A stretch of DNA of 64,000 bases from Eledone cirrhosa (taxonomy: Eukaryota): the NCBI GenBank assembly GCA_964016885.1, contig OZ024752.1, positions 25,110,001-25,174,000 on the forward strand, written 5' to 3'. The notes under the pieces were generated by a model. The model saw nothing but the letters and a program-made list of their open reading frames with translations, was not told where the DNA came from and ran no database searches. Numbering within the stretch: position 1 is the first letter of the stretch; each line of letters starts with the position of its first letter. Of the stretch, positions 1 through 55,764 are shown in pieces. The position numbers and the translations under genes were made by a program.

Positions 1-416
1 GTGTGTGGCTGCAGGGGAATCCAGCCGACGACGACGCCCGGACGGGGCGTCGTGGTGGTAGCTTGGCTTGGTCGATGCGACGACAACACGCCGCCCAAAC
101 TTGCTTCCTTCGGGGAGGCCCCGCGTAGACGGCGGAAAGAAATCCATTCCGCCGGCTAGGCGGTTCCGCCGCCGACCCGTACTTTTACGAGTAGCTGCCG
201 GGAAAGAGAGGCGGCAAGACGGCGTGTATACCCGTCGCGAGGCGAAGTTCCGCGACGCGACACGACGCCTTCCGTCTTCCGCCTCGAACCCGGCAAACGT
301 TCTCGCCCCTTGCCGCTTCGATGGCGAGAAAGTTCGCAACCCGCCGGCGAGGCGTATCCGCCGCCGACCCGTAGGGCTGCGCAACGCCTGCGGGGAATAC
401 CACCGAGTAGGGATTT

Positions 417-455
417 TGCAGCACGGCCAGGGGGTTCTGTCTATTATATAGGGTA
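417..455 (+). promoter_or_regulatory. Putative RNA Pol I spacer promoter (first of 78 copies, one per monomer; last copy ~55000-55038); predicted +1 at A450
   Basis: TGCAGCACGGCCAGGGGGTTCTGTCTATTATATAGGGTA. TATATAGGG matches the Pol I initiation motif known from plant and arthropod rDNA, and the block matches the gene-proximal copy at 55726-55764 at 38 of 39 positions. Activity is inferred, not shown. Confidence 0.75.
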
Positions 456-1140
456 GGCTTGATCGGACGAGCTCGAAGAAAACGATTCCGGGTGCTACCC
501 GTCGAGAGTCGTGAATATTCCGTTTACAAGACGGGTACGTGCCGGCCTACCCTATGCTATGACGGATGTCTCCGCCTCGACGACATGCCGTCTAGAACTC
601 GTCCGCCCCGCCTGCACGTTAACGCCCGCCCTCCGCCTCCGATGCCGTGTTCCGCCTCCGATGCGTGTTCTGCCCGTAAAGTCTTGCCAACTTGGCCGCC
701 TCCGACCCGTGTGTGGCTGCAGGGGAATCCAGCCGACGACGACGCCCGGACGGGGCGTCGTGGTGGTAGCTTGGCTTGGTCGATGCGACGACAACACGCC
801 GCCCAAACTTGCTTCCTTCGGGGAGGCCCCGCGTAGACGGCGGAAAGAAATCCATTCCGCCGGCTAGGCGGTTCCGCCGCCGACCCGTACTTTTACGAGT
901 AGCTGCCGGGAAAGAGAGGCGGCAAGACGGCGTGTATACCCGTCGCGAGGCGAAGTTCCGCGACGCGACACGACGCCTTCCGTCTTCCGCCTCGAACCCG
1001 GCAAACGTTCTCGCCCCTTGCCGCTTCGATGGCGAGAAAGTTCGCAACCCGCCGGCGACCCGTAGGGCTGCGCAACGCCTGCGGGGAATACCACCGAGTA
1101 GGGATTTTGCAGCACGGCCAGGGGGTTCTGTCTATTATAT

Positions 1141-4100
1141 AGGGTAGGCTTGATCGGACGAGCTCGAAGAAAACGATTCCGGGTGCTACCCGTCGAGAGT
1201 CGTGAATATTCCGTTTACAAGACGGGTACGTGCCGGCCTACCCTATGCTATGACGGATGTCTCCGCCTCGACGACATGCCGTCTAGAACTCGTCCGCCCC
1301 GCCTGCACGTTAACGCCCGCCCTCCGCCTCCGATGCCGTGTTCCGCCTCCGATGCGTGTTCTGCCCGTAAAGTCTTGCCAACTTGGCCGCCTCCGACCCG
1401 TGTGTGGCTGCAGGGGAATCCAGCCGACGACGACGCCTGGACGGGGCGTCGTGGTGGTAGCTTGGCTTGGTCGATGCGACGACAACACGCCGCCCAAACT
1501 TGCTTCCTTCGGGGAGGCCCCGCGTAGACGGCGGAAAGAAATCCATTCCGCCGGCTAGGCGGTTCCGCCGCCGACCCGTACTTTTACGAGTAGCTGCCGG
1601 GAAAGAGAGGCGGCAAGACGGCGTGTATACCCGTCGCGAGGCGAAGTTCCGCGACGCGACACGACGCCTTCCGTCTTCCGCCTCGAACCCGGCAAACGTT
1701 CTCGCCCCTTGCCGCTTCGATGGCGAGAAAGTTCGCAACCCGCCGGCGAGGCGTATCCGCCGCCGACCCGTAGGGCTGCGCAACGCCTGCGGGGAATACC
1801 ACCGAGTAGGGATTTTGCAGCACGGCCAGGGGGTTCTGTCTATTATATAGGGTAGGCTTGATCGGACGAGCTCGAAGAAAACGATTCCGGGTGCTACCCG
1901 TCGAGAGTCGTGAATATTCCGTTTACAAGACGGGTACGTGCCGGCCTACCCTATGCTATGACGGATGTCTCCGCCTCGACGACATGCCGTCTAGAACTCG
2001 TCCGCCCCGCCTGCACGTTAACGCCCGCCCTCCGCCTCCGATGCCGTGTTCCGCCTCCGATGCGTGTTCTGCCCGTAAAGTCTTGCCAACTTGGCCGCCT
2101 CCGACCCGTGTGTGGCTGCAGGGGAATCCAGCCGACGACGACGCCCGGACGGGGCGTCGTGGTGGTAGCTTGGCTTGGTCGATGCGACGACAACACGCCG
2201 CCCAAACTTGCTTCCTTCGGGGAGGCCCCGCGTAGACGGCGGAAAGAAATCCATTCCGCCGGCTAGGCGGTTCCGCCGCCGACCCGTACTTTTACGAGTA
2301 GCTGCCGGGAAAGAGAGGCGGCAAGACGGCGTGTATACCCGTCGCGAGGCGAAGTTCCGCGACGCGACACGACGCCTTCCGTCTTCCGCCTCGAACCCGG
2401 CAAACGTTCTCGCCCCTTGCCGCTTCGATGGCGAGAAAGTTCGCAACCCGCCGGCGAGGCGTATCCGCCGCCGACCCGTAGGGCTGCGCAACGCCTGCGG
2501 GGAATACCACCGAGTAGGGATTTTGCAGCACGGCCAGGGGGTTCTGTCTATTATATAGGGTAGGCTTGATCGGACGAGCTCGAAGAAAACGATTCCGGGT
2601 GCTACCCGTCGAGAGTCGTGAATATTCCGTTTACAAGACGGGTACGTGCCGGCCTACCCTATGCTATGACGGATGTCTCCGCCTCGACGACATGCCGTCT
2701 AGAACTCGTCCGCCCCGCCTGCACGTTAACGCCCGCCCTCCGCCTCCGATGCCGTGTTCCGCCTCCGATGCGTGTTCTGCCCGTAAAGTCTTGCCAACTT
2801 GGCCGCCTCCGACCCGTGTGTGGCTGCAGGGGAATCCAGCCGACGACGACGCCCGGACGGGGCGTCGTGGTGGTAGCTTGGCTTGGTCGATGCGACGACA
2901 ACACGCCGCCCAAACTTGCTTCCTTCGGGGAGGCCCCGCGTAGACGGCGGAAAGAAATCCATTCCGCCGGCTAGGCGGTTCCGCCGCCGACCCGTACTTT
3001 TACGAGTAGCTGCCGGGAAAGAGAGGCGGCAAGACGGCGTGTATACCCGTCGCGAGGCGAAGTTCCGCGACGCGACACGACGCCTTCCGTCTTCCGCCTC
3101 GAACCCGGCAAACGTTCTCGCCCCTTGCCGCTTCGATGGCGAGAAAGTTCGCAACCCGCCGGCGAGGCGTATCCGCCGCCGACCCGTAGGGCTGCGCAAC
3201 GCCTGCGGGGAATACCACCGAGTAGGGATTTTGCAGCACGGCCAGGGGGTTCTGTCTATTATATAGGGTAGGCTTGATCGGACGAGCTCGAAGAAAACGA
3301 TTCCGGGTGCTACCCGTCGAGAGTCGTGAATATTCCGTTTACAAGACGGGTACGTGCCGGCCTACCCTATGCTATGACGGATGTCTCCGCCTCGACGACA
3401 TGCCGTCTAGAACTCGTCCGCCCCGCCTGCACGTTAACGCCCGCCCTCCGCCTCCGATGCCGTGTTCCGCCTCCGATGCGTGTTCTGCCCGTAAAGTCTT
3501 GCCAACTTGGCCGCCTCCGACCCGTGTGTGGCTGCAGGGGAATCCAGCCGACGACGACGCCCGGACGGGGCGTCGTGGTGGTAGCTTGGCTTGGTCGATG
3601 CGACGACAACACGCCGCCCAAACTTGCTTCCTTCGGGGAGGCCCCGCGTAGACGGCGGAAAGAAATCCATTCCGCCGGCTAGGCGGTTCCGCCGCCGACC
3701 CGTACTTTTACGAGTAGCTGCCGGGAAAGAGAGGCGGCAAGACGGCGTGTATACCCGTCGCGAGGCGAAGTTCCGCGACGCGACACGACGCCTTCCGTCT
3801 TCCGCCTCGAACCCGGCAAACGTTCTCGCCCCTTGCCGCTTCGATGGCGAGAAAGTTCGCAACCCGCCGGCGAGGCGTATCCGCCGCCGACCCGTAGGGC
3901 TGCGCAACGCCTGCGGGGAATACCACCGAGTAGGGATTTTGCAGCACGGCCAGGGGGTTCTGTCTATTATATAGGGTAGGCTTGATCGGACGAGCTCGAA
4001 GAAAACGATTCCGGGTGCTACCCGTCGAGAGTCGTGAATATTCCGTTTACAAGACGGGTACGTGCCGGCCTACCCTATGCTATGACGGATGTCTCCGCCT

Positions 4101-7100
4101 CGACGACATGCCGTCTAGAACTCGTCCGCCCCGCCTGCACGTTAACGCCCGCCCTCCGCCTCCGATGCCGTGTTCCGCCTCCGATGCGTGTTCTGCCCGT
4201 AAAGTCTTGCCAACTTGGCCGCCTCCGACCCGTGTGTGGCTGCAGGGGAATCCAGCCGACGACGACGCCCGGACGGGGCGTCGTGGTGGTAGCTTGGCTT
4301 GGTCGATGCGACGACAACACGCCGCCGCCCAAACTTGCTTCCTTCGGGGAGGCCCCGCGTAGACGGCGGAAAGAAATCCATTCCGCCGGCTAGGCGGTTC
4401 CGCCGCCGACCCGTACTTTTACGAGTAGCTGCCGGGAAAGAGAGGCGGCAAGACGGCGTGTATACCCGTCGCGAGGCGAAGTTCCGCGACGCGACACGAC
4501 GCCTTCCGTCTTCCGCCTCGAACCCGGCAAACGTTCTCGCCCCTTGCCGCTTCGATGGCGAGAAAGTTCGCAACCCGCCGGCGAGGCGTATCCGCCGCCG
4601 ACCCGTAGGGCTGCGCAACGCCTGCGGGGAATACCACCGAGTAGGGATTTTGCAGCACGGCCAGGGGGTTCTGTCTATTATATAGGGTAGGCTTGATCGG
4701 ACGAGCTCGAAGAAAACGATTCCGGGTGCTACCCGTCGAGAGTCGTGAATATTCCGTTTACAAGACGGGTACGTGCCGGCCTACCCTATGCTATGACGGA
4801 TGTCTCCGCCTCGACGACATGCCGTCTAGAACTCGTCCGCCCCGCCTGCACGTTAACGCCCGCCCTCCGCCTCCGATGCCGTGTTCCGCCTCCGATGCGT
4901 GTTCTGCCCGTAAAGTCTTGCCAACTTGGCCGCCTCCGACCCGTGTGTGGCTGCAGGGGAATCCAGCCGACGACGACGCCCGGACGGGGCGTCGTGGTGG
5001 TAGCTTGGCTTGGTCGATGCGACGACAACACGCCGCCCAAACTTGCTTCCTTCGGGGAGGCCCCGCGTAGACGGCGGAAAGAAATCCATTCCGCCGGCTA
5101 GGCGGTTCCGCCGCCGACCCGTACTTTTACGAGTAGCTGCCGGGAAAGAGAGGCGGCAAGACGGCGTGTATACCCGTCGCGAGGCGAAGTTCCGCGACGC
5201 GACACGACGCCTTCCGTCTTCCGCCTCGAACCCGGCAAACGTTCTCGCCCCTTGCCGCTTCGATGGCGAGAAAGTTCGCAACCCGCCGGCGAGGCGTATC
5301 CGCCGCCGACCCGTAGGGCTGCGCAACGCCTGCGGGGAATACCACCGAGTAGGGATTTTGCAGCACGGCCAGGGGGTTCTGTCTATTATATAGGGTAGGC
5401 TTGATCGGACGAGCTCGAAGAAAACGATTCCGGGTGCTACCCGTCGAGAGTCGTGAATATTCCGTTTACAAGACGGGTACGTGCCGGCCTACCCTATGCT
5501 ATGACGGATGTCTCCGCCTCGACGACATGCCGTCTAGAACTCGTCCGCCCCGCCTGCACGTTAACGCCCGCCCTCCGCCTCCGATGCCGTGTTCCGCCTC
5601 CGATGCGTGTTCTGCCCGTAAAGTCTTGCCAACTTGGCCGCCTCCGACCCGTGTGTGGCTGCAGGGGAATCCAGCCGACGACGACGCCCGGACGGGGCGT
5701 CGTGGTGGTAGCTTGGCTTGGTCGATGCGACGACAACACGCCGCCCAAACTTGCTTCCTTCGGGGAGGCCCCGCGTAGACGGCGGAAAGAAATCCATTCC
5801 GCCGGCTAGGCGGTTCCGCCGCCGACCCGTACTTTTACGAGTAGCTGCCGGGAAAGAGAGGCGGCAAGACGGCGTGTATACCCGTCGCGAGGCGAAGTTC
5901 CGCGACGCGACACGACGCCTTCCGTCTTCCGCCTCGAACCCGGCAAACGTTCTCGCCCCTTGCCGCTTCGATGGCGAGAAAGTTCGCAACCCGCCGGCGA
6001 GGCGTATCCGCCGCCGACCCGTAGGGCTGCGCAACGCCTGCGGGGAATACCACCGAGTAGGGATTTTGCAGCACGGCCAGGGGGTTCTGTCTATTATATA
6101 GGGTAGGCTTGATCGGACGAGCTCGAAGAAAACGATTCCGGGTGCTACCCGTCGAGAGTCGTGAATATTCCGTTTACAAGACGGGTACGTGCCGGCCTAC
6201 CCTATGCTATGACGGATGTCTCCGCCTCGACGACATGCCGTCTAGAACTCGTCCGCCCCGCCTGCACGTTAACGCCCGCCCTCCGCCTCCGATGCCGTGT
6301 TCCGCCTCCGATGCGTGTTCTGCCCGTAAAGTCTTGCCAACTTGGCCGCCTCCGACCCGTGTGTGGCTGCAGGGGAATCCAGCCGACGACGACGCCCGGA
6401 CGGGGCGTCGTGGTGGTAGCTTGGCTTGGTCGATGCGACGACAACACGCCGCCCAAACTTGCTTCCTTCGGGGAGGCCCCGCGTAGACGGCGGAAAGAAA
6501 TCCATTCCGCCGGCTAGGCGGTTCCGCCGCCGACCCGTACTTTTACGAGTAGCTGCCGGGAAAGAGAGGCGGCAAGACGGCGTGTATACCCGTCGCGAGG
6601 CGAAGTTCCGCGACGCGACACGACGCCTTCCGTCTTCCGCCTCGAACCCGGCAAACGTTCTCGCCCCTTGCCGCTTCGATGGCGAGAAAGTTCGCAACCC
6701 GCCGGCGAGGCGTATCCGCCGCCGACCCGTAGGGCTGCGCAACGCCTGCGGGGAATACCACCGAGTAGGGATTTTGCAGCACGGCCAGGGGGTTCTGTCT
6801 ATTATATAGGGTAGGCTTGATCGGACGAGCTCGAAGAAAACGATTCCGGGTGCTACCCGTCGAGAGTCGTGAATATTCCGTTTACAAGACGGGTACGTGC
6901 CGGCCTACCCTATGCTATGACGGATGTCTCCGCCTCGACGACATGCCGTCTAGAACTCGTCCGCCCCGCCTGCACGTTAACGCCCGCCCTCCGCCTCCGA
7001 TGCCGTGTTCCGCCTCCGATGCGTGTTCTGCCCGTAAAGTCTTGCCAACTTGGCCGCCTCCGACCCGTGTGTGGCTGCAGGGGAATCCAGCCGACGACGA

Positions 7101-10100
7101 CGCCTGGACGGGGCGTCGTGGTGGTAGCTTGGCTTGGTCGATGCGACGACAACACGCCGCCCAAACTTGCTTCCTTCGGGGAGGCCCCGCGTAGACGGCG
7201 GAAAGAAATCCATTCCGCCGGCTAGGCGGTTCCGCCGCCGACCCGTACTTTTACGAGTAGCTGCCGGGAAAGAGAGGCGGCAAGACGGCGTGTATACCCG
7301 TCGCGAGGCGAAGTTCCGCGACGCGACACGACGCCTTCCGTCTTCCGCCTCGAACCCGGCAAACGTTCTCGCCCCTTGCCGCTTCGATGGCGAGAAAGTT
7401 CGCAACCCGCCGGCGAGGCGTATCCGCCGCCGACCCGTAGGGCTGCGCAACGCCTGCGGGGAATACCACCGAGTAGGGATTTTGCAGCACGGCCAGGGGG
7501 TTCTGTCTATTATATAGGGTAGGCTTGATCGGACGAGCTCGAAGAAAACGATTCCGGGTGCTACCCGTCGAGAGTCGTGAATATTCCGTTTACAAGACGG
7601 GTACGTGCCGGCCTACCCTATGCTATGACGGATGTCTCCGCCTCGACGACATGCCGTCCAGAACTCGTCCGCCCCGCCTGCACGTTAACGCCCGCCCTCC
7701 GCCTCCGATGCTGTGTTCCGCCTCCGATGCGTGTTCTGCCCGTAAAGTCTTGCCAACTTGGCCGCCTCCGACCCGTGTGTGGCTGCAGGGGAATCCAGCC
7801 GACGACGACGCCCGGACGGGGCGTCGTGGTGGTAGCTTGGTCGATGCGACGACAACACGCCGCCAACTTGCTTCCTTCGGGGAGGCCCCGTGTAGACGGC
7901 GGAAAGAAATCCATTCCGCCGGCTAGGCGGTTCCGCCGCCGACCCGTACTTTTACGAGTAGCTGCCGGGAAAGAGAGGCGGCAAGACGGCGTGTATACCC
8001 GTCGCGAGGCGAAGTTCCGCGACGCGACACGACGCCTTCCGTCTTCCGCCTCGAACCCGGCAAACGTTCCTTTATTCGTTCTCGCCTTGCCGCTTCGATG
8101 GCGAGAAAGTTCGCAACCCGCCGGCGAGGCGTATCCGCCGCCGACCCGTAGGGCTGCGCAACGCCTGCGGGGAATACCACCGAGTAGGGATTTTGCAGCA
8201 CGGCCAGGGGGTTCTGTCTATTATATAGGGTAGGCTTGATCGGACGAGCTCGAAGAAAACGATTCCGGGTGCTACCCGTCGAGAGTCGTGAATATTCCGT
8301 TTACAAGACGGGTACGTGCCGGCCTACCCTATGCTATGACGGATGTCTCCGCCTCGACGACATGCCGTCTAGAACTCGTCCGCCCCGCCTGCACGTTAAC
8401 GCCCGCGCTCCGTCTTCCGCCTCCGATGCGTGTTCTGCCCGTAAAGTCTTGCCAACTTGGCCGCCTCCGACCCGTGTGTGGCTGCAGGGGAATCCAGCCG
8501 ACGACGACGCCCGGACGGGGCGTCGTGGTGGTAGCTTGGCTTGGTCGATGCGACGACAACACGCCGCCCAAACTTGCTTCCTTCGGGGAGGCCCCGTGTA
8601 GACGGCGGAAAGAAATCCATTCCGCCGGCTAGGCGGTTCCGCCGCCGACCCGTACTTTTACGAGTAGCTGCCGGGAAAGAGAGGCGGCAAGACGGCGTGT
8701 ATACCCGTCGCGAGGCGAAGTTCCGCGACGCGACACGACGCCTTCCGTCTTCCGCCTCGAACCCGGCAAACGTTCTCGCCCTTGCCGCTTCGATGGCGAG
8801 AAAAGTTCGCAACCCGCCGGCGAGGCGTATCCGCCGCCGACCCGTAGGGCTGCGCAACGCCTGCGGGGAATACCACCGAGTAGGGATTTTGCAGCACGGC
8901 CAGGGGGTTCTGTCTATTATATAGGGTAGGCTTGATCGGACGAGCTCGAAGAAAACGATTCCGGGTGCTACCCGTCGAGAGTCGTGAATATTCCGTTTAC
9001 AAGACGGGTACGTGCCGGCCTACCCTATGCTATGACGGATGTCTCCGCCTCGACGACATGCCGTCTAGAACTCGTCCGCCCCGCCTGCACGTTAACGCCC
9101 GCGCTCCGTCTTCCGCCTCCGATGCGTGTTCTGCCCGTAAAGTCTTGCCAACTTGGCCGCCTCCGACCCGTGTGTGGCTGCAGGGGAATCCAGCCGACGA
9201 CGACGCCCGGACGGGGCGTCGTGGTGGTAGCTTGGCTTGGTCGATGCGACGACAACACGCCGCCCAAACTTGCTTCCTTCGGGGAGGCCCCGTGTAGACG
9301 GCGGAAAGAAATCCATTCCGCCGGCTAGGCGGTTCCGCCGCCGACCCGTACTTTTACGAGTAGCTGCCGGGAAAGAGAGGCGGCAAGACGGCGTGTATAC
9401 CCGTCGCGAGGCGAAGTTCCGCGACGCGACACGACGCCTTCCGTCTTCCGCCTCGAACCCGGCAAACGTTCCTTTATTCGTTCTCGCCCTTGCCGCTTCG
9501 ATGGCGAGAAAGTTCGCAACCCGCCGGCGAGGCGTATCCGCCGCCGACCCGTAGGGCTGCGCAACGCCTGCGGGGAATACCACCGAGTAGGGATTTTGCA
9601 GCACGGCCAGGGGGTTCTGTCTATTATATAGGGTAGGCTTGATCGGACGAGCTCGAAGAAAACGATTCCGGGTGCTACCCGTCGAGAGTCGTGAATATTC
9701 CGTTTACAAGACGGGTACGTGCCGGCCTACCCTATGCTATGACGGATGTCTCCGCCTCGACGACATGCCGTCTAGAACTCGTCCGCCCCGCCTGCACGTT
9801 AACGCCCGCCCTCCGCCTCCGATGCCGTGTTCCGCCTCCGATGCGTGTTCTGCCCGTAAAGTCTTGCCAACTTGGCCGCCTCCGACCCGTGTGTGGCTGC
9901 AGGGGAATCCAGCCGACGACGACGCCCGGACGGGGCGTCGTGGTGGTAGCTTGGCTTGGTCGATGCGACGACAACACGCCGCCCAAACTTGCTTCCTTCG
10001 GGGAGGCCCCGCGTAGACGGCGGAAAGAAATCCATTCCGCCGGCTAGGCGGTTCCGCCGCCGACCCGTACTTTTACGAGTAGCTGCCGGGAAAGAGAGGC

Positions 10101-13100: not shown

Positions 13101-13155
13101 GAATACCACCGAGTAGGGATTTTGCAGCACGGCCAGGGGGTTCTGTCTATTATAT
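1141..13155 (+). repeat. Higher-order repeat block A (17 monomers, 12015 bp)
   Basis: The same order of variant monomers (CCTGG variant, +GCC 711-bp unit, CCTGG variant, CCAGA/CTTTATTCG variant, 696-bp unit) recurs at an offset of 12015 bp. Examples: 1150/13165, 3982/15997, 7525/19540, 8236/20251, and the 17-bp deletion units 459/12474. Confidence 0.85.
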
Positions 13156-28100: not shown

Positions 28101-28745
28101 GAATATTCCGTTTACAAGACGGGTACGTGCCGGCCTACCCTATGCTATGACGGATGTCTCCGCCTCGACGACATGCCGTCTAGAACTCGTCCGCCCCGCC
28201 TGCACGTTAACGCCCGCCCTCCGCCTCCGATGCCGTGTTCCGCCTCCGATGCGTGTTCTGCCCGTAAAGTCTTGCCAACTTGGCCGCCTCCGACCCGTGT
28301 GTGGCTGCAGGGGAATCCAGCCGACGACGACGCCCGGACGGGGCGTCGTGGTGGTAGCTTGGCTTGGTCGATGCGACGACAACACGCCGCCCAAACTTGC
28401 TTCCTTCGGGGAGGCCCCGCGTAGACGGCGGAAAGAAATCCATTCCGCCGGCTAGGCGGTTCCGCCGCCGACCCGTACTTTTACGAGTAGCTGCCGGGAA
28501 AGAGAGGCGGCAAGACGGCGTGTATACCCGTCGCGAGGCGAAGTTCCGCGACGCGACACGACGCCTTCCGTCTTCCGCCTCGAACCCGGCAAACGTTCTC
28601 GCCCCTTGCCGCTTCGATGGCGAGAAAGTTCGCAACCCGCCGGCGAGGCGTATCCGCCGCCGACCCGTAGGGCTGCGCAACGCCTGCGGGGAATACCACC
28701 GAGTAGGGATTTTGCAGCACGGCCAGGGGGTTCTGTCTATTATAT
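13156..28745 (+). repeat. Higher-order repeat block B (22 monomers, 15590 bp)
   Basis: The variant order recurs at an offset of 15590 bp: 13165/28755, 15997/31587, 18832/34422, 19540/35130, 20251/35841, 20947/36537. Confidence 0.85.
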
Positions 28746-43700: not shown

Positions 43701-44309
43701 TACCCTATGCTATGACGGATGTCTCCGCCTCGACGACATGCCGTCTAGAACTCGTCCGCCCCGCCTGCACGTTAACGCCCGCGCTCCGTCTTCCGCCTCC
43801 GATGCGTGTTCTGCCCGTAAAGTCTTGCCAACTTGGCCGCCTCCGACCCGTGTGTGGCTGCAGGGGAATCCAGCCGACGACGACGCCCGGACGGGGCGTC
43901 GTGGTGGTAGCTTGGCTTGGTCGATGCGACGACAACACGCCGCCCAAACTTGCTTCCTTCGGGGAGGCCCCGTGTAGACGGCGGAAAGAAATCCATTCCG
44001 CCGGCTAGGCGGTTCCGCCGCCGACCCGTACTTTTACGAGTAGCTGCCGGGAAAGAGAGGCGGCAAGACGGCGTGTATACCCGTCGCGAGGCGAAGTTCC
44101 GCGACGCGACACGACGCCTTCCGTCTTCCGCCTCGAACCCGGCAAACGTTCCTTTATTCGTTCTCGCCCTTGCCGCTTCGATGGCGAGAAAGTTCGCAAC
44201 CCGCCGGCGAGGCGTATCCGCCGCCGACCCGTAGGGCTGCGCAACGCCTGCGGGGAATACCACCGAGTAGGGATTTTGCAGCACGGCCAGGGGGTTCTGT
44301 CTATTATAT
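28746..44309 (+). repeat. Higher-order repeat block C (rearranged third copy)
   Basis: The first 12 monomers match block B. Units at 40765, 41476, 42187, 42894 and 43612 match the block B units at 20947, 21658, 22369, 23076 and 23794 (offset 19818 bp), with extra monomers in between. Confidence 0.8.
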
Positions 44310-47300
44310 AGGGTAGGCTTGATCGGACGAGCTCGAAGAAAACGATTCCGGGTGCTACCCGTCGAGAGTCGTGAATATTCCGTTTACAAGACGGGTACGT
44401 GCCGGCCTACCCTATGCTGTGACGGATGTCTCCGCCTCGACGACATGCCGTCTAGAACTCGTCCGCCCCGCCTGCACGTTAACGCCCGCCCTCCGCCTCC
44501 GCTCCGTCTTCCGCCTCCGATGCGTGTTCTGCCCGTAAAGTCTTGCCAACTTGGCCGCCTCCGACCCGTGTGTGGCTGCAGGGGAATCCAGCCGACGACG
44601 ACGCCCGGACGGGGCGTCGTGGTGGTAGCTTGGCTTGGTCGATGCGACGACAACACGCCGCCCAAACTTGCTTCCTTCGGGGAGGCCCCGTGTAGACGGC
44701 GGAAAGAAATCCATTCCGCCGGCTAGGCGGTTCCGCCGCCGACCCGTACTTTTACGAGTAGCTGCCGGGAAAGAGAAGCGGCAAGACGGCGTGTATACCC
44801 GTCGCGAGGCGAAGTTCCGCGACGCGACACGACGCCTTCCGTCTTCCGCCTCGAACCCGGCAAACGTTCCTTTATTCGTTCTCGCCTTGCCGCTTCGATG
44901 GCGAGAAAGTTCGCAACCCGCCGGCGAGGCGTATCCGCCGCCGACCCGTAGGGCTGCGCAACGCCTGCGGGGAATACCACCGAGTAGGGATTTTGCAGCA
45001 CGGCCAGGGGGTTCTGTCTATTATATAGGGTAGGCTTGATCGGACGAGCTCGAAGAAAACGATTCCGGGTGCTACCCGTCGAGAGTCGTGAATATTCCGT
45101 TTTCAAGACGGGTACGTGCCGGCCTACCCTATGCTATGACGGATGTCTCCGCCTCGACGACATGCCGTCTAGAACTCGTCCGCCCCGCCTGCACGTTAAC
45201 GCCCGCCCTCCGCCTCCGCTCCGTCTTCCGCCTCCGATGCGTGTTCTGCCCGTAAAGTCTTGCCAACTTGGCCGCCTCCGACCCGTGTGTGGCTGCAGGG
45301 GAATCCAGCCGACGACGACGCCCGGACGGGGCGTCGTGGTGGTAGCTTGGCTTGGTCGATGCGACGACAACACGCCGCCCAAACTTGCTTCCTTCGGGGA
45401 GGCCCCGTGTAGACGGCGGAAAGAAATCCATTCCGCCGGCTAGGCGGTTCCGCCGCCGACCCGTACTTTTACGAGTAGCTGCCGGGAAAGAGAAGCGGCA
45501 AGACGGCGTGTATACCCGTCGCGAGGCGAAGTTCCGCGACGCGACACGACGCCTTCCGTCTTCCGCCTCGAACCCGGCAAACGTTCCTTTATTCGTTCTC
45601 GCCTTGCCGCTTCGATGGCGAGAAAGTTCGCAACCCGCCGGCGAGGCGTATCCGCCGCCGACCCGTAGGGCTGCGCAACGCCTGCGGGGAATACCACCGA
45701 GTAGGGATTTTGCAGCACGGCCAGGGGGTTCTGTCTATTATATAGGGTAGGCTTGATCGGACGAGCTCGAAGAAAACGATTCCGGGTGCTACCCGTCGAG
45801 AGTCGTGAATATTCCGTTTTCAAGACGGGTACGTGCCGGCCTACCCTATGCTATGACGGATGTCTCCGCCTCGACGACATGCCGTCTAGAACTCGTCCGC
45901 CCCGCCTGCACGTTAACGCCCGCCCTCCGCCTCCGCTCCGTCTTCCGCCTCCGATGCGTGTTCTGCCCGTAAAGTCTTGCCAACTTGGCCGCCTCCGACC
46001 CGTGTGTGGCTGCAGGGGAATCCAGCCGACGACGACGCCCGGACGGGGCGTCGTGGTGGTAGCTTGGCTTGGTCGATGCGACGACAACACGCCGCCCAAA
46101 CTTGCTTCCTTCGGGGAGGCCCCGTGTAGACGGCGGAAAGAAATCCATTCCGCCGGCTAGGCGGTTCCGCCGCCGACCCGTACTTTTACGAGTAGCTGCC
46201 GGGAAAGAGAGGCGGCAAGACGGCGTGTATACCCGTCGCGAGGCGAAGTTCCGCGACGCGACACGACGCCTTCCGTCTTCCGCCTCGAACCCGGCAAACG
46301 TTCCTTTATTCGTTCTCGCCTTGCCGCTTCGATGGCGAGAAAGTTCGCAACCCGCCGGCGAGGCGTATCCGCCGCCGACCCGTAGGGCTGCGCAACGCCT
46401 GCGGGGAATACCACCGAGTAGGGATTTTGCAGCACGGCCAGGGGGTTCTGTCTATTATATAGGGTAGGCTTGATCGGACGAGCTCGAAGAAAACGATTCC
46501 GGGTGCTACCCGTCGAGAGTCGTGAATATTCCGTTTACAAGACGGGTACGTGCCGGCCTACCCTATGCTGTGACGGATGTCTCCGCCTCGACGACATGCC
46601 GTCTAGAACTCGTCCGCCCCGCCTGCACGTTAACGCCCGCCCTCCGCCTCCGCTCCGTCTTCCGCCTCCGATGCGTGTTCTGCCCGTAAAGTCTTGCCAA
46701 CTTGGCCGCCTCCGACCCGTGTGTGGCTGCAGGGGAATCCAGCCGACGACGACGCCCGGACGGGGCGTCGTGGTGGTAGCTTGGCTTGGTCGATGCGACG
46801 ACAACACGCCGCCCAAACTTGCTTCCTTCGGGGAGGCCCCGTGTAGACGGCGGAAAGAAATCCATTCCGCCGGCTAGGCGGTTCCGCCGCCGACCCGTAC
46901 TTTTACGAGTAGCTGCCGGGAAAGAGAAGCGGCAAGACGGCGTGTATACCCGTCGCGAGGCGAAGTTCCGCGACGCGACACGACGCCTTCCGTCTTCCGC
47001 CTCGAACCCGGCAAACGTTCCTTTATTCGTTCTCGCCTTGCCGCTTCGATGGCGAGAAAGTTCGCAACCCGCCGGCGAGGCGTATCCGCCGCCGACCCGT
47101 AGGGCTGCGCAACGCCTGCGGGGAATACCACCGAGTAGGGATTTTGCAGCACGGCCAGGGGGTTCTGTCTATTATATAGGGTAGGCTTGATCGGACGAGC
47201 TCGAAGAAAACGATTCCGGGTGCTACCCGTCGAGAGTCGTGAATATTCCGTTTACAAGACGGGTACGTGCCGGCCTACCCTATGCTATGACGGATGTCTC

Positions 47301-47589
47301 CGCCTCGACGACATGCCGTCTAGAACTCGTCCGCCCCGCCTGCACGTTAACGCCCGCCCTCCGCCTCCGATGCCGTGTTCCGCCTCCGATGCGTGTTCTG
47401 CCCGTAAAGTCTTGCCAACTTGGCCGCCTCCGACCCGTGTGTGGCTGCAGGGGAATCCAGCCGACGACGACGCCCGGACGGGGCGTCGTGGTGGTAGCTT
47501 GGCTTGGTCGATGCGACGACAACACGCCGCCCAAACTTGCTTCCTTCGGGGAGGCCCCGTGTAGACGGCGGAAAGAAATCCATTCCGCC

Positions 47590-47865
47590 GGCTAGGCGGC
47601 CGGCTAGGCGGTTCCGCCGCCGACCCGTACTTTTACGAGTAGCTGCCGGGATAGACAAACGGCAAGACGGCGGCGTGTACACGCGACGCGAGGCGAAGTT
47701 ATGCGACGCGACACGACGCCTACAACCCGGCAAACGTTCCTTTATTCGTCCACGCCTTCCCGCTTCGATAGCGAGAAAGTAATCAATCCGCCGTCGAGGC
47801 GGTTCCGCCGCCGACCCGTAAGCTTACGGGTCGGCAGCGGGGAATACGACCGTCCAGGGCCTTTG
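47590..47865 (+). repeat. Strongly diverged segment within a single monomer
   Basis: It has many substitutions and indels relative to the consensus (GGGATAGACAAACGG, GTGTACACGCGACG, AAAGTAATCAATCCG, CCGTAAGCTTACGGG, GACCGTCCAGGGCC), while the flanks and promoter core are consensus. Confidence 0.92.
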
Positions 47866-50800
47866 CAGCACGGCCAGGGGGTTCTGTCTATTATATAGGG
47901 TAGGCTTGATCGGACGAGCTCGAAGAAAACGATTCCGGGTGCTACCCGTCGAGAGTCGTGAATATTCCGTTTACAAGACGGGTACGTGCCGGCCTACCCT
48001 ATGCTATGACGGATGTCTCCGCCTCGACGACATGCCGTCTAGAACTCGTCCGCCCCGCCTGCACGTTAACGCCCGCCCTCCGCCTCCGATGCCGTGTTCC
48101 GCCTCCGATGCGTGTTCTGCCCGTAAAGTCTTGCCAACTTGGCCGCCTCCGACCCGTGTGTGGCTGCAGGGGAATCCAGCCGACGACGACGCCCGGACGG
48201 GGCGTCGTGGTGGTAGCTTGGCTTGGTCGATGCGACGACAACACGCCGCCGCCCAAACTTGCTTCCTTCGGGGAGGCCCCGTGTAGACGGCGGAAAGAAA
48301 TCCATTCCGCCGGCTAGGCGGTTCCGCCGCCGACCCGTACTTTTACGAGTAGCTGCCGGGAAAGAGAGGCGGCAAGACGGCGTGTATACCCGTCGCGAGG
48401 CGAAGTTCCGCGACGCGACACGACGCCTTCCGTCTTCCGCCTCGAACCCGGCAAACGTTCTCGCCCCTTGCCGCTTCGATGGCGAGAAAGTTCGCAACCC
48501 GCCGGCGAGGCGTATCCGCCGCCGACCCGTAGGGCTGCGCAACGCCTGCGGGGAATACCACCGAGTAGGGATTTTGCAGCACGGCCAGGGGGTTCTGTCT
48601 ATTATATAGGGTAGGCTTGATCGGACGAGCTCGAAGAAAACGATTCCGGGTGCTACCCGTCGAGAGTCGTGAATATTCCGTTTACAAGACGGGTACGTGC
48701 CGGCCTACCCTATGCTATGACGGATGTCTCCGCCTCGACGACATGCCGTCTAGAACTCGTCCGCCCCGCCTGCACGTTAACGCCCGCCCTCCGCCTCCGA
48801 TGCCGTGTTCCGCCTCCGATGCGTGTTCTGCCCGTAAAGTCTTGCCAACTTGGCCGCCTCCGACCCGTGTGTGGCTGCAGGGGAATCCAGCCGACGACGA
48901 CGCCCGGACGGGGCGTCGTGGTGGTAGCTTGGCTTGGTCGATGCGACGACAACACGCCGCCCAAACTTGCTTCCTTCGGGGAGGCCCCGTGTAGACGGCG
49001 GAAAGAAATCCATTCCGCCGGCTAGGCGGTTCCGCCGCCGACCCGTACTTTTACGAGTAGCTGCCGGGAAAGAGAGGCGGCAAGACGGCGTGTATACCCG
49101 TCGCGAGGCGAAGTTCCGCGACGCGACACGACGCCTTCCGTCTTCCGCCTCGAACCCGGCAAACGTTCTCGCCCTTGCCGCTTCGATGGCGAGAAAAGTT
49201 CGCAACCCGCCGGCGAGGCGTATCCGCCGCCGACCCGTAGGGCTGCGCAACGCCTGCGGGGAATACCACCGAGTAGGGATTTTGCAGCACGGCCAGGGGG
49301 TTCTGTCTATTATATAGGGTAGGCTTGATCGGACGAGCTCGAAGAAAACGATTCCGGGTGCTACCCGTCGAGAGTCGTGAATATTCCGTTTACAAGACGG
49401 GTACGTGCCGGCCTACCCTATGCTATGACGGATGTCTCCGCCTCGACGACATGCCGTCTAGAACTCGTCCGCCCCGCCTGCACGTTAACGCCCGCCCTCC
49501 GCCTCCGATGCCGTGTTCCGCCTCCGATGCGTGTTCTGCCCGTAAAGTCTTGCCAACTTGGCCGCCTCCGACCCGTGTGTGGCTGCAGGGGAATCCAGCC
49601 GACGACGACGCCCGGACGGGGCGTCGTGGTGGTAGCTTGGCTTGGTCGATGCGACGACAACACGCCGCCGCCCAAACTTGCTTCCTTCGGGGAGGCCCCG
49701 TGTAGACGGCGGAAAGAAATCCATTCCGCCGGCTAGGCGGTTCCGCCGCCGACCCGTACTTTTACGAGTAGCTGCCGGGAAAGAGAGGCGGCAAGACGGC
49801 GTGTATACCCGTCGCGAGGCGAAGTTCCGCGACGCGACACGACGCCTTCCGTCTTCCGCCTCGAACCCGGCAAACGTTCTCGCCCCTTGCCGCTTCGATG
49901 GCGAGAAAGTTCGCAACCCGCCGGCGAGGCGTATCCGCCGCCGACCCGTAGGGCTGCGCAACGCCTGCGGGGAATACCACCGAGTAGGGATTTTGCAGCA
50001 CGGCCAGGGGGTTCTGTCTATTATATAGGGTAGGCTTGATCGGACGAGCTCGAAGAAAACGATTCCGGGTGCTACCCGTCGAGAGTCGTGAATATTCCGT
50101 TTACAAGACGGGTACGTGCCGGCCTACCCTATGCTATGACGGATGTCTCCGCCTCGACGACATGCCGTCTAGAACTCGTCCGCCCCGCCTGCACGTTAAC
50201 GCCCGCCCTCCGCCTCCGATGCCGTGTTCCGCCTCCGATGCGTGTTCTGCCCGTAAAGTCTTGCCAACTTGGCCGCCTCCGACCCGTGTGTGGCTGCAGG
50301 GGAATCCAGCCGACGACGACGCCCGGACGGGGCGTCGTGGTGGTAGCTTGGCTTGGTCGATGCGACGACAACACGCCGCCCAAACTTGCTTCCTTCGGGG
50401 AGGCCCCGTGTAGACGGCGGAAAGAAATCCATTCCGCCGGCTAGGCGGTTCCGCCGCCGACCCGTACTTTTACGAGTAGCTGCCGGGAAAGAGAGGCGGC
50501 AAGACGGCGTGTATACCCGTCGCGAGGCGAAGTTCCGCGACGCGACACGACGCCTTCCGTCTTCCGCCTCGAACCCGGCAAACGTTCCTTTATTCGTTCT
50601 CGCCCTTGTCGCTTCGATGGCGAGAAAGTTCGCAACCCGCCGGCGAGGCGTATCCGCCGCCGACCCGTAGGGCTGCGCAACGCCTGCGGGGAATACCACC
50701 GAGTAGGGATTTTGCAGCACGGCCAGGGGGTTCTGTCTATTATATAGGGTAGGCTTGATCGGACGAGCTCGAAGAAAACGATTCCGGGTGCTACCCGTCG

Positions 50801-53800
50801 AGAGTCGTGAATATTCCGTTTACAAGACGGGTACGTGCCGGCCTACCCTATGCTATGACGGATGTCTCCGCCTCGACGACATGCCGTCTAGAACTCGTCC
50901 GCCCCGCCTGCACGTTAACGCCCGCCCTCCGCCTCCGATGCCGTGTTCCGCCTCCGATGCGTGTTCTGCCCGTAAAGTCTTGCCAACTTGGCCGCCTCCG
51001 ACCCGTGTGTGGCTGCAGGGGAATCCAGCCGACGACGACGCCCGGACGGGGCGTCGTGGTGGTAGCTTGGCTTGGTCGATGCGACGACAACACGCCGCCC
51101 AAACTTGCTTCCTTCGGGGAGGCCCCGTGTAGACGGCGGAAAGAAATCCATTCCGCCGGCTAGGCGGTTCCGCCGCCGACCCGTACTTTTACGAGTAGCT
51201 GCCGGGAAAGAGAAGCGGCAAGACGGCGTGTATACCCGTCGCGAGGCGAAGTTCCGCGACGCGACACGACGCCTTCCGTCTTCCGCCTCGAACCCGGCAA
51301 ACGTTCCTTTATTCGTTCTCGCCCTTGTCGCTTCGATGGCGAGAAAGTTCGCAACCCGCCGGCGAGGCGTATCCGCCGCCGACCCGTAGGGCTGCGCAAC
51401 GCCTGCGGGGAATACCACCGAGTAGGGATTTTGCAGCACGGCCAGGGGGTTCTGTCTATTATATAGGGTAGGCTTGATCGGACGAGCTCGAAGAAAACGA
51501 TTCCGGGTGCTACCCGTCGAGAGTCGTGAATATTCCGTTTACAAGACGGGTACGTGCCGGCCTACCCTATGCTATGACGGATGTCTCCGCCTCGACGACA
51601 TGCCGTCTAGAACTCGTCCGCCCCGCCTGCACGTTAACGCCCGCCCTCCGCCTCCGATGCCGTGTTCCGCCTCCGATGCGTGTTCTGCCCGTAAAGTCTT
51701 GCCAACTTGGCCGCCTCCGACCCGTGTGTGGCTGCAGGGGAATCCAGCCGACGACGACGCCCGGACGGGGCGTCGTGGTGGTAGCTTGGCTTGGTCGATG
51801 CGACGACAACACGCCGCCCAAACTTGCTTCCTTCGGGGAGGCCCCGTGTAGACGGCGGAAAGAAATCCATTCCGCCGGCTAGGCGGTTCCGCCGCCGACC
51901 CGTACTTTTACGAGTAGCTGCCGGGAAAGAGAAGCGGCAAGACGGCGTGTATACCCGTCGCGAGGCGAAGTTCCGCGACGCGACACGACGCCTTCCGTCT
52001 TCCGCCTCGAACCCGGCAAACGTTCTCGCCCCTTGCCGCTTCGATGGCGAGAAAGTTCGCAACCCGCCGGCGAGGCGTATCCGCCGCCGACCCGTAGGGC
52101 TGCGCAACGCCTGCGGGGAATACCACCGAGTAGGGATTTTGCAGCACGGCCAGGGGGTTCTGTCTATTATATAGGGTAGGCTTGATCGGACGAGCTCGAA
52201 GAAAACGATTCCGGGTGCTACCCGTCGAGAGTCGTGAATATTCCGTTTTCAAGACGGGTACGTGCCGGCCTACCCTATGCTGTGACGGATGTCTCCGCCT
52301 CGACGACATGCCGTCTAGAACTCGTCCGCCCCGCCTGCACGTTAACGCCCGCCCTCCGCCTCCGCTCCGTCTTCCGCCTCCGATGCGTGTTCTGCCCGTA
52401 AAGTCTTGCCAACTTGGCCGCCTCCGACCCGTGTGTGGCTGCAGGGGAATCCAGCCGACGACGACGCCCGGACGGGGCGTCGTGGTGGTAGCTTGGCTTG
52501 GTCGATGCGACGACAACACGCCGCCCAAACTTGCTTCCTTCGGGGAGGCCCCGTGTAGACGGCGGAAAGAAATCCATTCCGCCGGCTAGGCGGTTCCGCC
52601 GCCGACCCGTACTTTTACGAGTAGCTGCCGGGAAAGAGAAGCGGCAAGACGGCGTGTATACCCGTCGCGAGGCGAAGTTCCGCGACGCGACACGACGCCT
52701 TCCGTCTTCCGCCTCGAACCCGGCAAACGTTCTCGCCCCTTGCCGCTTCGATGGCGAGAAAGTTCGCAACCCGCCGGCGAGGCGTATCCGCCGCCGACCC
52801 GTAGGGCTGCGCAACGCCTGCGGGGAATACCACCGAGTAGGGATTTTGCAGCACGGCCAGGGGGTTCTGTCTATTATATAGGGTAGGCTTGATCGGACGA
52901 GCTCGAAGAAAACGATTCCGGGTGCTACCCGTCGAGAGTCGTGAATATTCCGTTTACAAGACGGGTACGTGCCGGCCTACCCTATGCTATGACGGATGTC
53001 TCCGCCTCGACGACATGCCGTCTAGAACTCGTCCGCCCCGCCTGCACGTTAACGCCCGCCCTCCGCCTCCGATGCCGTGTTCCGCCTCCGATGCGTGTTC
53101 TGCCCGTAAAGTCTTGCCAACTTGGCCGCCTCCGACCCGTGTGTGGCTGCAGGGGAATCCAGCCGACGACGACGCCCGGACGGGGCGTCGTGGTGGTAGC
53201 TTGGCTTGGTCGATGCGACGACAACACGCCGCCCAAACTTGCTTCCTTCGGGGAGGCCCCGTGTAGACGGCGGAAAGAAATCCATTCCGCCGGCTAGGCG
53301 GTTCCGCCGCCGACCCGTACTTTTACGAGTAGCTGCCGGGAAAGAGAAGCGGCAAGACGGCGTGTATACCCGTCGCGAGGCGAAGTTCCGCGACGCGACA
53401 CGACGCCTTCCGTCTTCCGCCTCGAACCCGGCAAACGTTCCTTTATTCGTTCTCAGCCTTGCCGCTTCGATGGCGAGAAAGTTCGCAACCCGCCGGCGAG
53501 GCGTATCCGCCGCCGACCCGTAGGGCTGCGCAACGCCTGCGGGGAATACCACCGAGTAGGGATTTTGCAGCACGGCCAGGGGGTTCTGTCTATTATATAG
53601 GGTAGGCTTGATCGGACGAGCTCGAAGAAAACGATTCCGGGTGCTACCCGTCGAGAGTCGTGAATATTCCGTTTTCAAGACGGGTACGTGCCGGCCTACC
53701 CTATGCTATGACGGATGTCTCCGCCTCGACGACATGCCGTCTAGAACTCGTCCGCCCCGCCTGCACGTTAACGCCCGCCCTCCGCCTCCGCTCCGTCTTC

Positions 53801-55224
53801 CGCCTCCGATGCGTGTTCTGCCCGTAAAGTCTTGCCAACTTGGCCGCCTCGGACCCGTGTGTGGCTGCAGGGGAATCCAGCCGACGACGACGCCCGGACG
53901 GGGCGTCGTGGTGGTAGCTTGGCTTGGTCGATGCGACGACAACACGCCGCCCAAACTTGCTTCCTTCGGGGAGGCCCCGTGTAGACGGCGGAAAGAAATC
54001 CATTCCGCCGGCTAGGCGGTTCCGCCGCCGACCCGTACTTTTACGAGTAGCTGCCGGGAAAGAGAAGCGGCAAGACGGCGTGTATACCCGTCGCGAGGCG
54101 AAGTTCCGCGACGCGACACGACGCCTTCCGTCTTCCGCCTCGAACCCGGCAAACGTTCCTTTATTCGTTCTCGCCTTGCCGCTTCGATGGCGAGAAAGTT
54201 CGCAACCCGCCGGCGAGGCGTATCCGCCGCCGACCCGTAGGGCTGCGCAACGCCTGCGGGGAATACCACCGAGTAGGGATTTTGCAGCACGGCCAGGGGG
54301 TTCTGTCTATTATATAGGGTAGGCTTGATCGGACGAGCTCGAAGAAAACGATTCCGGGTGCTACCCGTCGAGAGTCGTGAATATTCCGTTTTCAAGACGG
54401 GTACGTGCCGGCCTACCCTATGCTATGACGGATGTCTCCGCCTCGACGACATGCCGTCTAGAACTCGTCCGCCCCGCCTGCACGTTAACGCCCGCCCTCC
54501 GCCTCCGCTCCGTCTTCCGCCTCCGATGCGTGTTCTGCCCGTAAAGTCTTGCCAACTTGGCCGCCTCCGACCCGTGTGTGGCTGCAGGGGAATCCAGCCG
54601 ACGACGACGCCCGGACGGGGCGTCGTGGTGGTAGCTTGGCTTGGTCGATGCGACGACAACACGCCGCCCAAACTTGCTTCCTTCGGGGAGGCCCCGTGTA
54701 GACGGCGGAAAGAAATCCATTCCGCCGGCTAGGCGGTTCCGCCGCCGACCCGTACTTTTACGAGTAGCTGCCGGGAAAGAGAGGCGGCAAGACGGCGTGT
54801 ATACCCGTCGCGAGGCGAAGTTCCGCGACGCGACACGACGCCTTCCGTCTTCCGCCTCGAACCCGGCAAACGTTCCTTTATTCGTTCTCGCCTTGCCGCT
54901 TCGATGGCGAGAAAGTTCGCAACCCGCCGGCGAGGCGTATCCGCCGCCGACCCGTAGGGCTGCGCAACGCCTGCGGGGAATACCACCGAGTAGGGATTTT
55001 GCAGCACGGCCAGGGGGTTCTGTCTATTATATAGGGTAGGCTTGATCGGACGAGCTCGAAGAAAACGATTCCGGGTGCTACCCGTCGAGAGTCGTGAATA
55101 TTCCGTTTTCAAGACGGGTACGTGCCGGCCTACCCTATGCTGTGACGGATGTCTCCGCCTCGACGACATGCCGTCTAGAACTCGTCCGCCCCGCCTGCAC
55201 GTTAACGCCCGCCCTCCGCCTCCG

Positions 55225-55725
55225 ATGCGTGTTCCGCCGTTAAGGCGTGCCAAGTTGGCCGCCTCCGACCCGTCTGGCTGCAGGGGAATCCAGCCTGGAC
55301 GGCAGCGTGGATAAGCTTGGTCGTCGTCGTCGACGCGACGACAACACGCCGCCAACTAGCTTCCTTCGGGGAGGCCCCGTGTAGACGGCGGAAAGTAATC
55401 GAATCCGCCGCCGACCCGTACTTTTTCGAGTAGCTGCCGGGAAAGAGATGCGGCAAGACGGCGTGTACACGCGACGCGACGCCTTCCGCCTTCCGCCTCG
55501 TACCCGGTAAACGTTCCGCCGTGGCTGCAGGGGAATCCAGCCGACGACGACGCCCGAACGGCGAAGTGGTGTAGCTTCGCCGACGACACGCCGCCTTCTA
55601 TCTCTCTAGCCATTGTAGGTCCCGCATCGACAGCGGGACCGTAGCCAACCCGCCGTCTAGGCGGTTCCGCAGCCGACTCGTGGTGGGCGGATCGGCCTTG
55701 GGGGATTTGCAACGATGCCGGAGGA
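55225..55725 (+). repeat. Degenerate terminal monomer forming the upstream region of the gene promoter
   Basis: Monomer motifs are recognisable but rearranged: GGCTGCAGGGGAATCCAGCC occurs twice, and CTTCCTTCGGGGAGGCCCC and CCGCCGCCGACCCGTACTTTT are present. The segment leads into the final promoter core. Confidence 0.85.
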
Positions 55726-55764
55726 TGCAGCACGGCCAGGGGGTCCTGTCTATTATATAGGGTA
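55726..55764 (+). promoter_or_regulatory. Putative 45S pre-rRNA (RNA Pol I) gene promoter core; predicted +1 at A55759
   Basis: TGCAGCACGGCCAGGGGGTCCTGTCTATTATATAGGGTA is the last copy of the motif before 18S. It is conserved as an island with 1 mismatch to the spacer copies, while both flanks have diverged. Confidence 0.8.

What the first reader, a model, noticed from the sequence alone, without database searches (positions are those of the whole stretch)
1..55764. Spacer of at least 55 kb built from 78 tandem copies of a Pol I promoter-like unit upstream of one rRNA gene
Seen: every ~708-bp monomer contains a 39-bp block that matches, at 38 of 39 positions, the single block located at the array end just before the ETS. 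In that last copy the block is a conserved island among diverged flanks. Known: duplicated spacer promoters occur in Drosophila, Xenopus, crustacean and Arabidopsis IGS, usually as a few to roughly a dozen copies in spacers of a few kb. Inference: at least 78 copies is far beyond that. This is either an extreme promoter/enhancer battery or an IGS-derived satellite amplified at the edge of the rDNA locus, where it could act as a sink for Pol I factors, a source of spacer ncRNA, or a centromere-like domain.
Basis: partly seen in the sequence, partly recalled or inferred. Interest (0 to 1): 0.8.

Follow-up and report, generated by a model that had tools for sequence, protein, structure and literature searches.

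The report
Overgrown rRNA promoter array in cephalopod
Seventy-eight near-identical 708-base repeats, each holding a copy of the likely start signal of the ribosomal RNA gene, lie in front of one such gene in what is likely a cephalopod; such repeated spacer promoters are a known design, and read depth suggests an average gene carries about 5 to 35 copies, so this 55,000-base stretch is likely a local overgrowth rather than the norm.

Summary
Observation confirmed. 78 head-to-tail monomers (691-719 bp, 99.4% mean identity) each carry a 39-bp block that matches the single block at 55726-55764 at 38/39; the rRNA genes follow from 57906. The block spans -33..+6 of a plant/arthropod-type Pol I initiator. 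Its flanks stay homologous (68%), so each monomer is a duplicated promoter region. 18S primer sites point to a cephalopod. The giant-spacer reading is only partly supported. In five public runs the monomer-to-promoter contig depth ratio is about 5-11 (four runs) and 25-36 (one deep run), below 78. The distal 62 monomers hold base-perfect 8-9-kb block duplications and lack alleles common in the deep run, so the array looks like a recent local expansion. The left flank is unseen: long spacer variant, locus-edge satellite and assembly inflation remain open. No transcription data. This is a known kind (spacer promoters, spacer-derived satellites) at an unusual scale. My four searches for a cephalopod or molluscan description listed no cephalopod spacer.

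The parts
1..55227 (+). Tandem array of ~708-bp monomers (77 complete regular units plus partial ends; 26 sequence types; 63% GC), open at the left edge of the window
417..455 (+). First of 78 spacer copies of the 39-bp promoter-core block (last copy 55000-55038)
1..9102 (+). Base-perfect duplicate of 12016-21117 (12 monomers; cut by the window edge)
13071..22156 (+). Base-perfect duplicate of 28661-37746 (12 monomers)
47587..47861 (+). Odd diverged tract in monomer 67: 36 substitutions and 3 indels against monomer 61, ending at -36, just before the block; 11 spacer blocks (47864-55038) follow it before the gene promoter
55033..55725 (+). Terminal, decaying monomer: near-identical to the array in its 5' part, rearranged at about -270 to -150, 18-30 of 39 identical in the last bins before the block
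55726..55764 (+). Predicted core of the rRNA gene promoter (-33..+6); predicted start at 55758 or 55759
   Evidence: motif fit to PMC7928365 and PMC2590618; start not measured
55759..57905 (+). Predicted 5' ETS (2,147 nt) with a 356-bp tandem duplication at 56247-56962
57906..60781 (+). 18S rRNA gene, 2,876 nt with long expansions; cephalopod-type V2 primer sites at 58223-58241 and 58423-58442
61310..61468 (+). 5.8S rRNA gene
62090..64000 (+). [quoted passage not shown]

Best explanation
The 78 repeats are tandem duplicates of the region around the predicted RNA polymerase I start of the adjacent rRNA gene, so they are likely spacer promoters, and this array has likely overgrown the average for such units through recent multi-monomer duplications. 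Shown: tandem structure, same orientation as the gene, homology to the gene-proximal copy, the conserved -33..+6 island, and exact 8-9-kb block duplications. Inferred from known systems (Drosophila 240-bp repeats, Arabidopsis and Daphnia spacer promoters): each core would bind the TBP-containing Pol I selectivity factor, raise loading at the gene promoter and yield spacer transcripts; misaligned sister-chromatid exchange would change copy number; the terminal copy recombines least and decays except where factors bind. The gene-proximal 11-16 monomers likely represent the usual array and the distal 62 or more a recent expansion, probably surplus.
For: Block count and orientation. Island p about 0.001 within 68%-identical flanks. 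A second diverged upstream tract (monomer 67) also stops at -36. The block end fits the plant initiator TATATA(A/G)GGG at 9 of 10 and the arthropod consensus TATA-TANGRRRR at 11 of 12 (motifs; match read from the sequence). In Arabidopsis -55/-33 to +6 suffices for initiation (PMC7928365). Longest exactly repeated run is 12 monomers against at most 7 in 500 shuffles, and the three copies continue differently. Monomer-to-unique contig depth: X1 17.4 vs 2.8-3.6, X6 61 vs 5.4-6.7, X7 167 vs 16.9, X8 33.6 vs 3, X2 82,000-112,000 vs 3,130-3,340. Two alleles at 41% and 30% of depth in X2 occur in 8 and 6 of the 16 proximal monomers but in 0 and 2 of the 62 distal ones. Circular monomer contigs in X1, X5, X6, X7 and X8 show the tandem unit exists outside this assembly.
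Against: No start site, transcript or factor binding was measured. The island could be a short gene-conversion tract, and the monomer-67 boundary a crossover point. The tool states that contig depth is no copy number. Overlapping contigs inflate the X2 sums, and one value of exactly 25,000 hints at a cap that would deflate them. X1 and X8 sit near the depth floor. The five runs carry five organism labels, and none is known to be this individual, so this animal's average may be higher. X5 gave no ratio (promoter contig absent) and X11 almost no cover. The left junction to 28S was not seen in any listed loose end (cut their lists).
Confidence: 0.58

Rival explanations
1. Locus-edge satellite: this is the outermost rRNA gene of a cluster, and the distal monomers are a free-standing satellite grown out of the spacer, with no 28S to the left; likely inert or a passive sink for Pol I factors.
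For: No 28S in 55 kb; the distal block differs in allele make-up from the proximal one and from the deep run; spacer satellites occur right outside NORs in Aglais (PMC10257491) and without rDNA on the D. simulans Y (PMC5295612); unchecked scan notes describe other amplified rDNA-derived repeats in this genome.
Against: The distal monomers show no decay, insertions or inversions. A diverged monomer piece at once-per-unit depth in X2 (2,993, record 8) does not fit monomers 67 or 78 by its counts and may be an ordinary 5' boundary lying left of the window.
Confidence: 0.2
2. Assembly inflation: reads from many shorter spacers were chained into one long array.
For: Three base-perfect copies of an 8-9-kb block; depth ratios below 78; an odd monomer with 11 blocks to its right matches the ratio of about 10-11 in X6, X7 and X8.
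Against: The duplicated blocks continue differently each time and types change gradually towards the gene, which simple loop unrolling would not give; 9-kb repeats are shorter than typical accurate long reads (own knowledge; the assembly method is unknown).
Confidence: 0.12
3. Giant spacer as the norm: most rRNA units of this animal carry 55 kb or more of promoter repeats, an extreme enhancer battery.
For: The one unit seen has at least 78 copies; the X2 ratio may be capped; the runs may be other individuals or species.
Against: All five ratios lie at 5-36, including X7, which is far from floor and cap (167 vs 16.9). An unchecked scan note reports two 28S genes within one window elsewhere in this genome (e1-8667571).
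Confidence: 0.05
4. The block is not the Pol I core but a recent conversion tract or a Pol II TATA element, and the true start lies elsewhere.
For: Nothing functional was measured; TATTATATA resembles a TATA box; plant rRNA promoters can be used by Pol II (PMC7928365); mussel start sites proposed in PMC6730533 differ in sequence.
Against: It is the only such block between the array and 18S, its extent equals a known Pol I core, and two independent diverged tracts end at its 5' edge.
Confidence: 0.05

Closest known systems
Bag530 spacer array of Bacillus stick insects (PMC2590618; passages and section 8 read)
   Same: A 'large array' of head-to-tail ~530-bp spacer repeats, each with a putative spacer promoter TATATAGGGGGT, ending in a truncated monomer before a ~1.7-kb ETS that holds a ~388-bp direct repeat; start sites predicted, not mapped.
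   Different: Copy number per unit was not given in what I read; there the gene promoter lies in unique sequence downstream and differs in motif, whereas here it is the last, decayed monomer and matches at 38/39.
Drosophila 240-bp spacer promoter repeats (PMC1215480 passages; PMC5295612 table)
   Same: Duplicated core promoters whose number correlates with promoter activity; length varies within species; spacer repeats also occur without rDNA on the D. simulans Y.
   Different: Mean spacer 3.3-11.6 kb across 29 species against at least 55 kb here; AT-rich 240-bp unit against a 63% GC 708-bp unit; function tested there, not here.
Arabidopsis and other plant gene/spacer promoters (PMC7928365 and PMC6589552 passages)
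   Same: TATATAGGG-type initiator; minimal promoter -55/-33 to +6, the size of the conserved block.
   Different: One spacer promoter per unit in Cucurbita; likeness across kingdoms is limited to about 10 bases.
Spacer satellites of Lepidoptera, tomato and characiform fishes (PMC10257491 passages; PMC2679016 abstract; PMC13170303 abstract and section 5)
   Same: Spacer subrepeat arrays with a short median (about 2 kb) and a long tail (over 17 kb in Inachis io), sometimes also outside the gene cluster; Hepialus units of about 39 kb.
   Different: The word 'promoter' does not occur in the main text of PMC10257491 and the Hepialus spacer is built of mobile-element pieces; here every monomer is a promoter copy.

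Membership tests
rDNA spacer promoters (duplicated Pol I promoters) | Upstream of the gene promoter and ETS, in the same orientation as the rRNA genes | tested here: met
rDNA spacer promoters (duplicated Pol I promoters) | Sequence homology to the gene promoter, highest at the core | tested here: met
   38/39 core, 68% flanks, p about 0.001; the gene promoter itself is predicted
rDNA spacer promoters (duplicated Pol I promoters) | Core holds a Pol I initiator-type motif | tested here: met
   9 of 10 to the plant motif, 11 of 12 to the arthropod consensus; no cephalopod start site available for comparison
rDNA spacer promoters (duplicated Pol I promoters) | Lies between the 28S of one unit and the 18S of the next | tested here: inconclusive
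   left flank outside the window, no genome held, no junction among listed loose ends
rDNA spacer promoters (duplicated Pol I promoters) | Binds Pol I factors, initiates transcripts or enhances the gene promoter | not testable with these tools
   needs 5'-end mapping, ChIP or reporter tests
rDNA spacer promoters (duplicated Pol I promoters) | Copy number varies by unequal exchange; terminal copies diverge | tested here: met
   block duplications, decayed terminal unit, ratios differ between runs; the mechanism is inferred
IGS-derived satellite DNA | Long homogeneous tandem array homologous to spacer subrepeats | tested here: met
IGS-derived satellite DNA | Array lies outside rDNA units, uncoupled from rRNA genes | tested here: inconclusive
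   right end is joined to an rRNA gene; left end unseen
Centromeric satellite | CENP-A occupancy or primary constriction | not testable with these tools
   no data

The most novel reading that the evidence does not exclude
Cephalopod rRNA genes are driven by batteries of full-length (0.7-kb) promoter copies that range from about 10 to more than 78 per unit. Distal copies are active Pol I promoters, so tens of kilobases of spacer are transcribed or hold Pol I factors, and promoter dosage can expand independently of gene dosage as a tunable control on ribosome output in fast-growing animals.
Probability: 0.15. Interest if true: 0.75.

Novelty: new variant of a known kind. Interest (0 to 1): 0.45.

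Why it matters
It gives a base-level candidate for the Pol I promoter of a cephalopod, outlined by natural footprints (-33..+6) and testable by one 5'-end mapping experiment. It shows promoter-bearing spacer repeats averaging roughly 4-25 kb per unit and reaching at least 55 kb, longer than any promoter-repeat spacer in the papers I read. With promoter copies ranging about tenfold, the old link between spacer-promoter number and growth rate becomes testable in a new phylum, and the array records how a spacer repeat could turn into a satellite. It is not a new kind of system.

Tried and rejected
Whole-genome context: none held, so the left flank could not be read. Expression: no RNA holder listed. 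Metagenome scan for the block: 0 matches; second scan not used. Cross-species footprint: the laid runs held near-identical monomers or almost nothing (X11: 2 contigs), so no divergence was available. X5: monomer 36x but no promoter contig, no ratio taken. X23 (RAD reads) is too uneven for ratios; its large loose ends at 56141-56280 are AT-rich and look spurious. The once-per-unit X2 contig did not fit monomer 67 or 78 by its counts; its letters are not given. Folding a monomer as DNA gave z = -2.6 on 20 shuffles, weak and not used. Coding potential: longest stop-free stretch 211 codons in a 63% GC repeat, not pursued. No CpG depletion (observed/expected 1.36) and no excess of CpG transitions among the few variants. 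No fixed higher-order period. Scan look-ups near the finding, by sequence, by words and among relatives returned nothing. Literature searches listed no cephalopod spacer or promoter paper (listings only; one search showed 20 of 24); one search returned nothing.

Full report
What is there. The window holds a tandem array from base 1 to about 55,227, one decayed terminal unit, a predicted 2,147-nt ETS and the rRNA genes: 18S 57906-60781, 5.8S 61310-61468 and 28S from 62090. The 39-bp block occurs 79 times, all on the + strand: 78 copies with one mismatch and the gene-proximal copy at 55726-55764; 100 shuffles gave none. The 77 complete regular monomers average 99.4% pairwise identity (minimum 94.1%) and fall into 26 types, one of which has 25 copies.

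Organism. The 18S gene is 2,876 nt long. The cephalopod primer pair Ceph18S (PMC8074623, passages) fits at 58223-58241 (one mismatch, one gap) and 58423-58442 (three mismatches), enclosing 181 nt against a stated target of 150-190. Two alternative primers fit with 3 and 1 mismatches. Best ungapped fits in 60 shuffles had 4-6 mismatches at minimum and about 7.5 on average; the forward primer needed its gap, and ungapped it did no better than chance. This points to a cephalopod. The paper says the pair is unsuitable for octopods, which fits the mismatches, and unchecked scan notes call the genome octopus-like. Octopod is an inference.

Is the block a promoter core? Its end reads TATATAGGG. It fits the plant initiator TATATA(A/G)GGG at 9 of 10 (PMC7928365, passages) and the arthropod consensus TATA-TANGRRRR at 11 of 12 (PMC2590618, section 8). 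That places the start at 55759 (plant numbering, recalled) or 55758. The block then runs from -33 to +6, and in Arabidopsis -55/-33 to +6 suffices for initiation. Against a typical monomer the terminal unit is near-identical at its 5' end, rearranged around -270 to -150, 18-30 of 39 identical in the next bins, 38 of 39 in the block and 18-27 of 39 downstream. Flank identity is 68% over 282 aligned columns, and 221 of 200,000 permutations reach 38/39. So each monomer is a duplicate of the promoter region with about 200 bp of ETS start, and the core is kept while the rest drifts. Monomer 67 gives a second, weaker footprint: 36 substitutions between -245 and -36, none after; a crossover could give the same edge. 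None of this is a functional test.

How the array grew. Monomer types repeat in blocks: units 1-12 equal 18-29, and 19-30 equal 41-52, base for base over 9.1 kb each; the longest repeated run is 12 against at most 7 in 500 shuffles. The copies continue differently, there is no fixed higher-order period, and types shift towards the gene: the commonest motif class is in 42 of the 62 distal and 4 of the 16 proximal monomers. This is the pattern expected from unequal exchange with rarely recombining terminal repeats, as described for Daphnia (PMC3036644, passages). An assembler chaining reads from different units could mimic part of it.

Is 55 kb typical? The run search listed 24 runs, 20 holding some part; I laid 8. 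Circular monomer contigs occur in X1, X5, X6, X7 and X8, so the repeat exists outside this assembly. Five of the eight runs gave a ratio of monomer depth to promoter or unique ETS depth: X1 5-6, X6 9-11, X7 10, X8 11, X2 25-36. X5, X11 and X23 gave none. In X2 the promoter-side contigs (3,259 and 3,342) and distal ETS contigs (3,263) agree. A second ETS variant set at about 3,700-4,200 fits the promoterless rDNA family of note e1-8664086 and was left out of the denominator. These are rough figures: the tool warns that contig depth is no copy number, X2 sums overlapping contigs and may be capped, X1 and X8 are near the floor, and the runs bear five organism labels (the low-depth ones probably hold trace DNA; inference). 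Still, all lie below 78. Two alleles that make up 41% and 30% of X2 depth are in 8 and 6 of 16 proximal monomers but 0 and 2 of 62 distal ones, so the distal block is not representative of that pool. X2 also holds a diverged monomer piece at once-per-unit depth (2,993) that fits neither odd monomer of the window by its counts; it may be the usual 5' boundary. No 28S junction was seen, but both loose-end or piece lists were cut.

How it most likely works. Each monomer would act as a spacer promoter: the core would bind the TBP-containing selectivity factor and Pol I, raise loading at the gene promoter and yield spacer RNA, as shown for Drosophila, where activity follows the number of promoter-bearing repeats (PMC1215480, passages). 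Unequal exchange sets the number. Most units would carry about 10-35 copies, and this one a recent surplus, either as a long spacer variant or as a block at the edge of the cluster. I give 0.58 to overgrown spacer promoters, 0.2 to a free-standing edge satellite, 0.12 to assembly inflation, 0.05 to a giant spacer as the norm and 0.05 to a non-promoter block.

Comparison and novelty. Bacillus stick insects have a large array of 530-bp repeats with TATATAGGGGGT. Drosophila spacers average 3.3-11.6 kb, and spacer repeats sit without rDNA on the D. simulans Y (PMC5295612, table; bioRxiv 2022.07.10.499502, passages). Butterfly spacer satellites have a 2-kb median with a tail beyond 17 kb, and Hepialus units reach about 39 kb (PMC10257491, passages). 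Tomato and fish satellites derive from spacers (PMC2679016, abstract; PMC13170303, abstract and section 5). Mussel spacers are 1.4-2.5 kb and mammalian ones over 30 kb (PMC6730533, passages). Searches listed no cephalopod spacer or Pol I promoter; the library lacks most subscription journals and I opened no supplements, where spacer lengths and promoter alignments may stand. The system is of a known kind. The scale (at least 78 promoter copies, 55 kb) and the lineage are new in what I could read. Interest 0.45.

Noticed in passing
window 47587-47861: One monomer has a diverged upstream half that shares some alleles with the terminal unit and stops just before the block; 11 blocks follow, close to the depth ratio of 10-11 in three runs. 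It may be a relic boundary monomer.
   Followed up: partly
window 55980-56962: The ETS has nested direct repeats: a 356-bp tandem pair (56247-56962) and a third partial copy from about 55980; Bacillus also has a ~388-bp ETS duplication.
   Followed up: no
window 57906-60781: 18S is about 1,000 nt longer than usual, with GC-rich, simple-sequence expansions near 58100-58320, 58750-59340 and 60000-60300.
   Followed up: partly
run X2 on window 55588-55938: Diverged copies of the promoter region at depth 7-16, against about 3,260 for the main form; RAD run X23 shows only the diverged form at 55615-55699. Probably dispersed low-copy relics.
   Followed up: no
runs X2, X6 on window 56000-57100: A second ETS variant set at depth similar to or above the main form (about 3,700-4,200 in X2), without a matching promoter variant; fits the promoterless rDNA-derived family noted elsewhere in this genome.
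   Followed up: partly
monomer positions +408..+440 and +600..+632 (window 2256-2288, 2448-2480): A 33-bp internal repeat (91% identical, 192 bp apart); the second copy lies at about -110 to -77 and is partly kept in the gene promoter, a candidate upstream element. Imperfect palindromes at +290..+315 and +380..+422.
   Followed up: partly
runs X1, X6, X7, X8 on window 54876-54890: The dominant monomer type differs between runs (short form in X7 and X8, long form in X1, both in X6 and X2), so monomer types may mark individuals or populations.
   Followed up: no
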